From NCBI RefSeq assembly GCF_988242995.1, contig NZ_OZ547043.1: a stretch of 64,000 nt of DNA; one strand, given 5' to 3'. The position numbers were made by a program. Positions 52,245 to 55,200 of the stretch are shown here, piece after piece. Within the stretch, counting starts at the first letter, position 1. Every line of letters starts with the position of its first letter.

Positions 52245-55200
52245 TTTCTGTAGTCCCGGCGATAGTACATTTCTTCTTTCAGGTGACCAAAGAAGTTCTC
52301 CATTACCGCATTATCAAGGCAGTTGCCCTTGCGCGACATGCTCTGCACTAACCCTCTGTCCGCCAGGGCGGACTGATAACTTTTTATCCGGTAATGCCAT
52401 CCTTGATCACTGTGGAGCAGCGGTTTCTCCCCTTCAGCAAGGCTTTCCAGCCCCTTATTTAACATCCGCTTCACCAGCTCCTCTGTAGGCCTGCAGGCCG
52501 TTTCCCACGCCACGATTTCCCCGTTAAACAAATCAAGTATCGGGGACAGGTACAGTTTTTGTCCGCCAGCCCTGAATTCGGTGATATCTGTCACCCATTT
52601 CTCACAGGGAGCTTCCGCTTTGAACTGCCGCTGAAGGATATTTTCTGCAGCGAGTCCCATATTTCCCCGGTAAGACCGGTATTTCTTCAGGCGCACAGGA
52701 GACTTCAGGCCGAGCTGTTGCATCAGTTTTCGCACCGTTTTGCCACTGAACTTAAGACCTCTTTTCTGAAGCTCACAATGGATCCGCCGGTACCCATAAC
52801 ATCCCCGGTGTTCATGGAAGATGGAGGCTATGAGCTGTTTCACATCAGCATACTTGTCCTTAGCCTTCTGCAGTGACAGCTGGTAGTACAGCGTGCTTCT
52901 GGCCAGCCCTGCAGCCTTTAACAGGTCAGACTGGCAGTGTCCGCACCTCAGGCTCCGGATGACTTTCGTTTTTTCTCCAGCTCCTGGCGCTTTTTTTCCA
53001 GGAGATGCTCCTGCATGGCTTTCAGATATGCATTTTCTGCGCGAAGATAACGCAGCTCATTCTTCATCTCTTCCGGCGTCATGTTTGCCTCGTTTTCATG
53101 GGTATCATCAGAACGGGTCATGCTTTTCTCCTTCCTGCGCCTGATAAAGGCCTCATTACCAGATTTGCGGTAGCCTTTTATCCAGTTTTTAACCGTGTTG
53201 TGGCTGGGAATGTTAAACCGGGCAGCTACCCGGGGTAGAGACTCAGAATGCCCGAGAGCATAAAGAACCACGCAAAGTTTATCTTCAGGAGAATAGCTAC
53301 GCTTGTGTCTGCAATCCAGTGCCCGAGGACCGTGAAGAAGAAAAAGATTAATCCAGTGTGAGAGGCTGGTGTGAGAAAGTTGAAAGAGTTTTGCCGTAGA
53401 AATGATGCCTGCATGACCAGCCAGGTAATGATTTACAGCGGCAAGTTTTACTTCAAATGAATGTTTCATAAACTGCACCTTCAGATGTCAGATTATGTCC
53501 AACATTTGGGGTGCAGTTCATGACGCGTCTTATCAGGCCTACAATGGGTACCGGAGCGTTAAGCCGGATAAGGCGTTCACGCCGAATCCGGTAAGAATAT
53601 GAGCACCAGGTTAACTGAACTTACTCTGCGCCCACATCACGCCGCTGGCATACTCCGGCGGCAGCAGCGGGATTAAGGCTTCCAGCGTCGCGGTCAGACG
53701 CGATGTGTCGCTGTCGGTTAAATTCAGATGCCCCACTTTACGCCCCGGACGGACTTCTTTGTCGTACCAGTGCAGATGCACCAGCGGCAATTTCAGCCAG
53801 TCATAATTCACATCGCTACCAATCAGGTTGATCATCACCGACGGACTATTCACTACCGGTTGCGGTAACGGCAGATCGGTAATCGCCCGCAGATGCAGCT
53901 CAAACTGGCTGATGCTGGCACCGTTTTGCGTCCAGTGACCACTGTTATGCACACGCGGAGCCAGTTCGTTGATCAGCAGACCTTGCGGGGTGACAAAACA
54001 CTCCATCGCCATCACGCCCACATAGCCCAGCTCCTGCATAATCGCCGACAGCATCTCTTCGGCCTGCGCCTGCTGCTGCGCGTTGGCCTGCGGGAAAGCG
54101 ACGCTGGTGCGCAAAATACCGTCCTGATGCAGGTTATGCGTCAGCGGATAAAACACGGTGCTACCATCAAAGCCGCGCGCGCCAACCAGCGACACTTCGC
54201 CAGAGAAGTTTATGCCCTGCTCGACAATACATTCGCCGTAGCATTCAGCCGGTAACTGTTCGGTTTCATCGGCGCGTAAACGCCATTGACCGCGTCCGTC
54301 ATAGCCACCAGTGCGACGCTTAACAATCGCCAGCTCACCTAAACGATCAAACACCGCAGGCCACTCGCTGCGATCGGCAAGTAACTGCCACGGTGCGGTC
54401 GGTAGGTGAAGCTTGTCGAAAAGCTGCTTCTGAGTCAGACGGTCAGCAATAATCGGGAATACATCGCGGTTCACAAAGGCCGGATGGCGCGCCAGCTCGC
54501 GGGTTAATGCGGTTTCCGGCCAGCGTTCGATCTCAGCGGTAATCACACTTTGTTGAAAAGGCACCGCCGCCGGTTCAGCGTCCAGCCCGACTGGCCAGAC
54601 AGCAATGCCTAACGGTTCGCCTGCCTGACGCAGCATACGGCCTAACTGCCCGTTACCGAGGACGCAAACCTGTTTCATGCCGCACCTCGCGGGTCCGGGT
54701 TTTCCAGCACTTCGTCAGTCTGGGCTTTGCGCCAGTCATTCAGACGCTGGTGCAGTTCTTTATCATGAGTCGCAAGAATTTGTGCTGCCAGTAACGCCGC
54801 GTTTGCCGCGCCAGCTTTACCAATCGCCAGCGTACCCACCGGAATGCCGCGCGGCATTTGTACGATGGAGTAGAGGCTATCGACACCGCTCAGTGCGGCG
54901 CTCTGTACTGGCACGCCCAGTACTGGCACTAACGTTTTGGCGGCAATCATGCCCGGCAGGTGCGCTGCGCCGCCTGCGCCCGCAATAATCACCTGATAAC
55001 CGTTCTCTTCGGCACTTTCGGCGAAGCTGAACAGTTTATCGGGGGTGCGGTGAGCAGAAACCACTTCAACGTGGTGCGGGACATTCAGGATTTCGAAGAT
55101 TTCGGCGGCGAACTGCATGGTAGCCCAGTCGCTTTTGGACCCCATCACGATGGCGACACGCGCCGGATTATTGCGGGAAGACATGCGTCTTAAAACTCCT

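What the first reader, a model, noticed from the sequence alone, without database searches (positions are those of the whole stretch)
52948..52976. Programmed -1 frameshift site joining orfA to orfB
A slippery A-run (minus-strand GAG AAA AAA CGA, plus-strand T6 at 52969-52974) sits just before the orfA stop. The -1 frame is open from there through orfB with an N-terminal region typical of IS3 OrfAB (…LKAAGLARSTLYYQ…). This indicates an active transposase configuration.
Basis: seen in the sequence. Interest (0 to 1): 0.3.

Follow-up and report, generated by a model that had tools for sequence, protein, structure and literature searches.

The report
IS1397 transposase frameshift site, relocated

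Summary
The sequence facts are correct. There is a T6/A6 run at 52969-52974, orfA stops at 52950-52948, and the -1 frame is open through orfB. The element is an intact 1432-bp IS1397 (IS3 family, window 53520-52089, minus strand) inserted in a REP loop between ybcF and purK. RefSeq already annotates its transposase as a "programmed frameshift".

The -1 frame opens at 53056, so the overlap holds two A-runs. Only the upstream one is a canonical in-phase heptamer: A_AAA_AAG at 52996-52990. It has GGAG exactly 11 nt upstream and a hairpin starting 4 nt downstream (52986-52949, -13.9 kcal/mol, z -2.45). About 58 of 63 relatives, including IS150, show the same three-part layout.

It sits in that hairpin's apical loop and has no structure downstream (z +1.23). 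In the -1 frame it encodes the conserved Glu-Lys of the transposase.

One minor curiosity: IS1397 lacks the heptamer at the family-conserved 'YL-KK' position, and its cassette lies 24 nt further downstream.

Low interest; the frameshift itself is already known.

The parts
52089..53520 (-). Complete IS1397 element (1432 bp, TG...CA ends)
   Evidence: Ends and length. It is 99.9-100% identical to copies annotated 'IS3-like element IS1397 family transposase'. Removing it plus one TCA restores an empty ybcF-purK site that is 100% identical over 397 bp in other E. coli.
53496..53520 (-). Left terminal inverted repeat (imperfect, ~25 bp; 15/16 identical at the tip)
   Evidence: comparison of the two ends.
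52089..52113 (-). Right terminal inverted repeat
53521..53523 (-). 3-bp target duplication (TCA on the minus strand) in the loop of a REP/palindromic unit
   Evidence: The flanks read GCCTGATAAGACGCG-TCA|IS|TCA-AGCGTCGCATCAGGC.
52086..52088 (-). Second copy of the 3-bp target duplication
52948..53469 (-). orfA (173 aa from ATG 53469; an alternative GTG start is at 53478); DNA-binding HTH protein
   Evidence: HTH_28, HTH_Tnp_1. PGAP starts the CDS at the ATG.
52121..53056 (-). -1 reading frame, open from 53056; it encodes the HTH_21 + rve (DDE integrase-core) part of the transposase. The deduced OrfAB is join(53469..52990, 52990..52121), 449 aa.
   Evidence: The fusion protein is found by exact match on 71 contigs, named IS1397 family transposase.
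53008..53012 (-). Shine-Dalgarno-like AGGAG; its GGAG ends 11 nt before the heptamer
   Evidence: The same 11-nt spacing occurs in 36/51 relatives. Published range for -1 stimulation is 9-14 nt (PMC5009743).
52990..52996 (-). Slippery heptamer A_AAA_AAG in the orfA phase: the proposed -1 shift site (part of the A7G run 52997-52990)
   Evidence: It is the only in-phase X_XXY_YYZ in the overlap and is invariant in 8 fetched IS1397 copies. It is the junction used in 127/128 deposited proteins. This motif class is among the most efficient in E. coli (PMC4066793).
52949..52986 (-). Predicted stimulatory hairpin. The lower helix is CAGG/CCUG and the upper helix is CUGGAGA/UC-AUCCGG.
   Evidence: -13.9 kcal/mol, z -2.45, 1/200 shuffles. 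The common natural variants give -14.6, z -3.05 and -3.98. It meets the IS3-family hairpin rules of PMC4066793.
52969..52974 (-). In phase it is only an A_AAA tetramer. In the -1 frame it is GAA AAA, the conserved Glu-Lys of the OrfAB motif EKxx[VI][VI]xxLR.
   Evidence: the 45 nt downstream fold at -8.3 kcal/mol, z +1.23. One natural variant reads AAAAAG here (L084).
52999..53013 (-). Small upstream hairpin CAGGAG-CAU-CUCCUG that contains the SD-like sequence; role unknown
   Evidence: 70-nt fold, z -2.93, 0/200.
53017..53028 (-). TAT CTG AAA GCC ('YLKA'): the position homologous to the family/IS150 slippery site 'YL-KK' (TAT CTA AAA AAG). IS1397 has no heptamer here.

Best explanation
The window carries an intact IS1397 (IS3 family, IS150-like). 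Its transposase OrfAB is made when a fraction of the ribosomes translating orfA slip back one base on A_AAA_AAG (52996-52990), with tRNA-Lys in the P and A sites re-pairing from AAA-AAG to AAA-AAA. They then continue in the -1 frame (GCG CCA GGA ...) through orfB. Two stimulators are inferred. The first is pairing of 16S rRNA with a GGAG 11 nt upstream. The second is a 38-nt hairpin whose first pair is 4 nt downstream and whose 3' arm ends at the orfA stop. Ribosomes that do not slip terminate at TGA 52950-52948 and make the small DNA-binding OrfA. It is there because it encodes Lys-Lys in orfA and the conserved Glu-Lys in the transposase frame, and it is at most a minor secondary slip site. 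Shown here: the sequence features, their phase, the fold statistics, family conservation and database annotation. Inferred: that slippage actually happens at this heptamer, and its efficiency.
For: Identity as IS1397 and the 'programmed frameshift' annotation come. A_AAA_AAG is the only in-phase heptamer in the 106-nt overlap. Of 128 deposited IS1397 proteins, 127 join at the A7G run, and the DNA there is invariant in 8 copies. In 63 relatives with orfB in the -1 frame, about 58 have an in-phase A_AAA_AAG or A_AAA_AAA. GGAG lies exactly 11 nt upstream in 36/51 relatives and in IS1397. The relatives' stem starts 3-7 nt downstream in most and is supported by covariation: 90% of cells paired, 6 pairs with double changes, 0/500 shuffles, and collapse on sliding. 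The composite GGAG-N11-A6G motif is unique in 64 kb, with 0.02 expected. From the literature: A_AAA_AAG is among the best E. coli motifs, while A_AAA is the weakest usable tetramer, is at background without a strong stimulator, and even the best tetramer is ~10-fold below the best heptamer (PMC4066793). SD spacing for -1 shifts is 9-14 nt (PMC5009743).
Against: There is no experimental datum for IS1397 frameshifting in the material I could read; the three primary IS1397/ISKpn1 papers are not held. The PGAP junctions are model-based placements, not measurements, and are themselves inconsistent by 1 nt. IS1397 copies are at least 97% identical, so its own hairpin cannot be tested by covariation. 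One natural variant (L084) weakens the lower helix (z -1.49). The hairpin spacer is at the short end of the usual range: 3 unpaired nt, with the first pair at position 4. IS1397's heptamer is not at the family-homologous position, so conservation supports the type of cassette, not this exact site.
Confidence: 0.85

Rival explanations
1. One reading: ribosomes slip -1 on GAG AAA AAA CGA (52974-52969) just before the orfA stop, for example by single tRNA-Lys slippage on the A_AAA tetramer while the slowly decoded CGA codon waits in the A site.
For: The run exists and the -1 frame is open from it. A_AAA is one of six tetramers with measurable activity in E. coli (PMC4066793). One deposited protein uses this junction (MCW7009108.1). 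Many relatives also have an A-rich run just before the orfA stop, e.g. IS150 ACG AAA AAG TGA.
Against: It is not an in-phase heptamer. A_AAA is the weakest usable tetramer and is at background without a strong 3' stimulator. The 45 nt downstream show no structure (z +1.23; 183/200 shuffles fold as well). The nearest GGAG is 5 nt upstream, outside the 9-14 nt range. The run sits in the apical loop of the hairpin that follows the canonical heptamer. A shift here would add one residue to the conserved EKxxVI spacing. GAAAAAAC occurs at chance frequency. 127/128 deposited junctions are elsewhere.
Confidence: 0.07
2. The frames are joined at the RNA level. RNA polymerase stutters on the A7 run (52997-52991) and adds one A, so that standard translation of the edited mRNA gives the fusion.
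For: The run is A7. Homopolymeric A/T runs are known sites of transcriptional realignment used by some IS elements (PMC5009743), and AAAAAAA is under-represented in E. coli genes, possibly for that reason (PMC4066793).
Against: Productive bacterial slippage is described for runs of about 9 A/T, and 7 is short. This model does not explain the precisely spaced GGAG and 3' hairpin, which are ribosomal stimulators. Relatives keep A6G/A7 rather than longer runs.
Confidence: 0.05
3. No recoding takes place. OrfA and OrfB are made separately (OrfB from the internal GTG at 52843 or another start), and the overlap is a relic.
For: the ORF listing finds a 240-aa ORF starting at GTG 52843. Separate OrfB products are known for some IS3 members (my background knowledge, not checked here).
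Against: The -1 frame is open for 213 nt upstream of that GTG and encodes conserved OrfAB residues there: EKTKVIRSLR...LKAAGLARSTLYYQ, with the HTH_21 domain starting before the GTG. The canonical cassette is present and invariant. In the IS3 family the fusion protein is the transposase (PMC5009743).
Confidence: 0.03

Closest known systems
IS1397 (IS3 family), the REP/palindromic-unit-specific insertion sequence of E. coli
   Same: It is 1432 bp and 99.9-100% identical to copies annotated as IS1397 in RefSeq. The fusion protein is an exact match to deposited IS1397 transposases. It is inserted in the loop of a REP with a 3-bp duplication, which matches the described target specificity (PMC1525189).
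   Different: Nothing of substance: this is a copy of the known element at a polymorphic site (ybcF-purK).
IS150 frameshift cassette (A_AAA_AAG + downstream stem-loop; cited as a proven case in PMC4066793, ref. Vogele et al. 1991)
   Same: Same motif, same GGAG/stem architecture, and the same orfA/-1 orfB organisation. The 3' arm of the stem encodes the homologous x-L-R residues of the transposase frame.
   Different: The two proteins are ~43% identical. IS150 and most relatives place the heptamer at 'YL-KK' with a long-range stem enclosing a ~43-nt loop. IS1397 has YLKA there, and its heptamer, GGAG and 5' arm all lie 24 nt further 3', giving a compact hairpin with an 11-nt loop.
E. coli dnaX -1 frameshift signal
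   Same: A_AAA_AAG heptamer, an internal Shine-Dalgarno ~10 nt upstream, and a simple 3' stem-loop (PMC5009743).
   Different: It is a cellular gene with a different outcome: the shifted product terminates after one codon. The IS1397 hairpin is weaker and interrupted, so a lower efficiency is expected (inference).

Membership tests
IS3 family insertion sequence | Terminal inverted repeats ending 5'-TG...CA-3' and a short (3-4 bp) target duplication | tested here: met
   TGAACTG...CAGTTCA ends, 15/16 identical at the tips, and a TCA duplication. The empty site was recovered at 100% identity.
IS3 family insertion sequence | Two consecutive, partly overlapping ORFs, with orfB in the -1 frame relative to orfA | tested here: met
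   106-nt overlap with a frame relation of -1.
IS3 family insertion sequence | OrfA with a helix-turn-helix domain; OrfB with an rve (DDE integrase-core) domain | tested here: met
   Pfam HTH_28 at 9e-18, rve at 1.2e-21, rve_2 and HTH_21.
IS1397 (the specific element) | Near-identity to reference copies over the full length | tested here: met
   100% over 1432 bp to NZ_CP051753.1, and 1 nt different from the PCN033 copy. An ISfinder reference was not available.
IS1397 (the specific element) | Insertion into the loop of a REP/palindromic unit | tested here: met
   The flanks GCCTGATAAGACGCG / AGCGTCGCATCAGGC form the palindrome. The specificity is described in PMC1525189.
Programmed -1 ribosomal frameshift cassette (bacterial, IS3 type) | X_XXY_YYZ (or Z_ZZN) motif in the phase of the upstream ORF, inside the overlap | tested here: met
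A_AAA_AAG at 52996-52990 is the only in-phase heptamer.
Programmed -1 ribosomal frameshift cassette (bacterial, IS3 type) | 3' hairpin of 17-140 nt, starting 4-10 nt after the motif, opening with G-C/C-G plus at least 3 further pairs, with unfolding energy >= 7.6 kcal/mol (rules of PMC4066793) | tested here: met
38 nt long, first pair C-G at position 4 followed by A-U, G-C and G-C, 13.9 kcal/mol, z -2.45. This holds for A6G only.
Programmed -1 ribosomal frameshift cassette (bacterial, IS3 type) | Optional 5' Shine-Dalgarno-like stimulator 9-14 nt upstream | tested here: met
   GGAG 11 nt upstream; range from PMC5009743.
Programmed -1 ribosomal frameshift cassette (bacterial, IS3 type) | Evolutionary conservation of the motif and covariation in the stimulator | tested here: inconclusive
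   The motif is invariant in IS1397 copies, but these are at least 97% identical. The relatives conserve the cassette type with good covariation, but at a position 24 nt upstream of IS1397's.
Programmed -1 ribosomal frameshift cassette (bacterial, IS3 type) | Demonstrated production of a trans-frame protein at that site | not testable with these tools
   This needs a reporter assay or mass spectrometry. The primary IS1397 papers are not held.

The most novel reading that the evidence does not exclude
In the IS1397 lineage the whole frameshift cassette (GGAG, A_AAA_AAG and the 5' arm of the stimulatory stem) has been rebuilt 24 nt downstream of the position used by IS150 and almost all relatives. 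The GGAG spacing of exactly 11 nt and the ancestral 3' arm (the x-L-R codons of the transposase frame) were kept. The result is a compact hairpin whose loop holds a second, decoy A-run. That would be a natural example of a recoding signal migrating within a dual-coding overlap while preserving its geometry.
Probability: 0.55. Interest if true: 0.3.

Novelty: already known. Interest (0 to 1): 0.1.

Why it matters
It matters little beyond correct annotation. IS1397 is a described element, present in full length in 1707 of 5426 complete E. coli genomes, and RefSeq already marks its transposase as made by programmed frameshifting. The useful outcomes are practical. The slip site should be placed at 52996-52990, not 52974-52969. 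An open -1 frame alone cannot locate a shift site when the overlap is long. PGAP's own join for this element is inconsistent, giving three different junction peptides. The displaced cassette relative to IS150-like relatives is a small evolutionary curiosity. It could serve as a natural test of how spacing constraints (SD at 11 nt, stem at 4-7 nt) shape recoding signals.

Tried and rejected
(1) The primary IS1397/ISKpn1 papers (PMC94167, PMC95333, PMC169884) are not held, so I could cite no experimental statement on the IS1397 shift site.

(2) I searched for intermediate relatives to test the IS1397 hairpin by covariation, without success. The search for homologous proteins returned only 99-100% identical variants. 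The 50%-clustered search gave nothing between 97% and about 53% except P0159 (76%), which turned out to be an indel-ridden assembly of IS1397 itself. The genome-contig scan gave relatives at 57% or less. Plasmid tblastn gave 46% or less. ISKpn1 was not identified.

(3) I first suspected that the 'KKPPGAG' versus 'KKAPGAG' junction difference reflected a G-to-C polymorphism turning A6G into A6C. I rejected this: the DNA is identical in all fetched copies, and the difference is only where PGAP re-reads a base.

(4) I considered that L064 and L075, which also lack the family heptamer, share the relocation with IS1397. I rejected this as unsupported: they are not its nearest kin (48% versus 53%) and their downstream folds are weak.

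(5) Folding 110-nt windows gave non-significant z-scores. Only the isolated 45-nt hairpin is significant.

(6) I looked for the ancestral long-range family stem in IS1397 by eye at the homologous arms. No convincing pairing was found; this was not tested formally.

Full report
OBSERVATION. The minus strand between 53520 and 52089 was read and translated in all frames. The orfA stop TGA is at 52950-52948. The -1 frame contains no stop down to the orfB stop at 52123-52121 and reads ...LKAAGLARSTLYYQ.... However, the -1 frame is already open from 53056, so the orfA/-1 overlap is 106 nt and contains two A-runs:
- A7G at 52997-52990 (CTG GAA AAA AAG CGC);

In the orfA phase only the first is an X_XXY_YYZ heptamer, A_AAA_AAG at 52996-52990. 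As bare strings neither is unusual in 64 kb: AAAAAAG occurs 18 times against 12.5 expected, and GAAAAAAC 3 times against 3.2 expected.

WHAT THE ELEMENT IS. The 1432-bp segment has TG...CA ends and imperfect terminal inverted repeats, and is flanked by a 3-bp TCA duplication. Full-length copies occur in 1707 of 5426 complete E. coli genomes. Deleting the element and one TCA reconstructs a ybcF-purK intergenic site found at 100% identity over 397 bp in other strains. The insertion splits a REP palindrome (GCCTGATAAGACGCG | AGCGTCGCATCAGGC), as described for IS1397 (PMC1525189). OrfA carries HTH domains, and the orfB frame carries HTH_21 and rve integrase-core domains. The copy differs from the PCN033 copy by one synonymous base, so it looks intact. 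Activity itself is inferred, not shown.

WHICH A-RUN IS THE SHIFT SITE. Five lines of evidence favour A_AAA_AAG at 52996-52990.

(i) Motif quality. In E. coli, A_AA.A_AA.G is one of the three most efficient heptamers. A_AA.A is the weakest of the six tetramers with any activity, tetramers are at background without a strong 3' stimulator, and even the best tetramer is about 10-fold below the best heptamer. In the IS1 and IS3 families heptamers outnumber tetramers 403 to 87, and 72% of the heptamers are A6G or A7 (PMC4066793).

(ii) Upstream stimulator. A GGAG (within AGGAG, 53012-53008) ends exactly 11 nt before the heptamer. The published window for -1 stimulation is 9-14 nt (PMC5009743). The composite GGAG-N11-AAAAAAG is unique in the window, with 0.02 expected.

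(iii) Downstream stimulator. The 45 nt after the heptamer fold into a hairpin at 52986-52949 (-13.9 kcal/mol, z -2.45, 1/200 shuffles). The common natural variants give -14.6 kcal/mol with z -3.05 and -3.98; in these a U-G pair becomes U-A. The hairpin meets all four IS3-family hairpin rules of PMC4066793.

(iv) Family comparison. A scan of one genome per species gave 80 relatives at 40-57% identity. Of 63 with orfB in the -1 frame, about 58 have an in-phase A_AAA_AAG or A_AAA_AAA 33-69 nt before the orfA stop. GGAG lies exactly 11 nt upstream in 36 of 51 distinct sequences, and a stem starts 3-7 nt downstream in most. That stem (GCCUUAGUUCA / UGAACUAAGGC) is supported by covariation: 90% of cells paired, 6 of 13 pairs with changes on both sides, 0/500 shuffles, and 21-43% pairing when slid. 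IS150 has exactly this layout (L092) and is cited as a proven case in PMC4066793.

(v) Annotation. Of 128 deposited IS1397 transposases, 127 join at the A7G run. Those 127 split into 'KKPPGAG' (111 proteins) and 'KKAPGAG'-type junctions only because PGAP re-reads either the C or the G. The DNA is identical in all 8 copies fetched.

Read in the -1 frame, the run is GAA AAA, giving EKTKVIRSLR. This aligns with a conserved transposase motif EKxx[VI][VI]xxLR in the relatives (IS150 EKVKVLNELR, L048 EKTRLVTQLR). Many relatives likewise show an A-rich run just before the orfA stop. The run is therefore explained by dual coding (Lys-Lys in OrfA, Glu-Lys in OrfAB). One natural copy has AAAAAG there and is still annotated as intact (L084).

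A SMALL SURPRISE. In a gap-free comparison, 62 nt separate the YLK(K/A) codon from the xLR codons in both IS1397 and the Bacillus-type relatives (my count). The family heptamer position 'YL-KK' is TAT CTG AAA GCC ('YLKA', 53028-53017) in IS1397, which has no heptamer there. The family GGAG position reads GCAGAA. IS1397's GGAG, heptamer and 5' stem arm all lie 24 nt further 3', while the 3' arm remains on the homologous xLR codons. This turns a stem enclosing a ~43-nt loop into a compact hairpin with an 11-nt loop. IS1397 has no close sister in the collections searched, so I could not establish when or how this happened. Two Pseudomonas relatives that also lack the family heptamer are not its nearest kin.

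MECHANISM, WITH STATUS. Shown: the sequence elements, phase, fold statistics, conservation of the cassette type, and database junctions. Inferred from established knowledge of dnaX/IS911/IS150-type signals: tandem tRNA-Lys slippage on A_AAA_AAG, stimulated by anti-SD pairing 11 nt upstream and by the 3' hairpin. This yields OrfAB (449 aa, the transposase), while non-shifted ribosomes make OrfA (173 aa). Efficiency is unknown.

VERDICT. The finding is a correct recognition of a known feature of a known element, with the slip site mislocated by 21 nt. Novelty: already known. Interest: low (0.1).

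Noticed in passing
IS1397 right end, window 52089-52153 (element nt 1368-1432); e.g. 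K-12 MG1655 NZ_CP097882.1 258142-258206: A 65-bp stretch matching only the right end of IS1397 at 95.4% is present once in K-12, BL21(DE3), MC1061 and many other strains that have no full copy. 3485 of 5426 genomes match IS1397, but only 1707 carry a full-length element. It is probably a widespread solo-end relic.
   Followed up: no
L003, L004, L006, L007 (Pseudomonas asuensis), L043 (P. oryzihabitans), L046 (P. rhizoryzae): In these relatives the OrfA and OrfB parts lie in one continuous open frame of about 450-470 codons, so the transposase would need no frameshift.
   Followed up: no
L064 (P. endophytica), L075 (P. saliphila), L071 (Neobacillus pocheonensis): These relatives have orfB in the -1 frame but no in-phase X_XXY_YYZ heptamer in the overlap. 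L064 has CAG AAA AAA CGA at the same codon offset after 'YLK' as IS1397's A6G, with only a weak downstream fold. They may be decayed copies or may use tetramer sites.
   Followed up: partly
window 52990-52997 (deposited proteins P0001-P0136): PGAP places the IS1397 frameshift join inconsistently on identical DNA.
   Followed up: yes
window 52999-53013, minus strand: A perfect 6-bp hairpin CAGGAG-CAU-CUCCUG lies immediately upstream of the heptamer and contains the SD-like GGAG. CUCCUG could alternatively pair with the second CAGGAG at 52986-52981, enclosing the heptamer in a loop (and by eye). Its role is unknown; 5' hairpins can attenuate -1 shifting (PMC5009743).
   Followed up: partly
window 52086-52088 / 53521-53523; L001 and L002 (ssuB-pepN site): The target duplication is 3 bp (TCA) in the window and in L002 but 4 bp (GTCA) in L001 at the same ssuB-pepN REP. 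This explains the 1-base length difference seen among the top BLAST hits.
   Followed up: yes
L086 (UPEC129), L087 (strain A24): Some IS1397 copies are 1 or 5 bp shorter (1431 and 1427 bp) and are annotated as 'frameshifted' pseudogenes. Their A7G and hairpin region is unchanged, so the inactivating indels lie elsewhere.
   Followed up: partly
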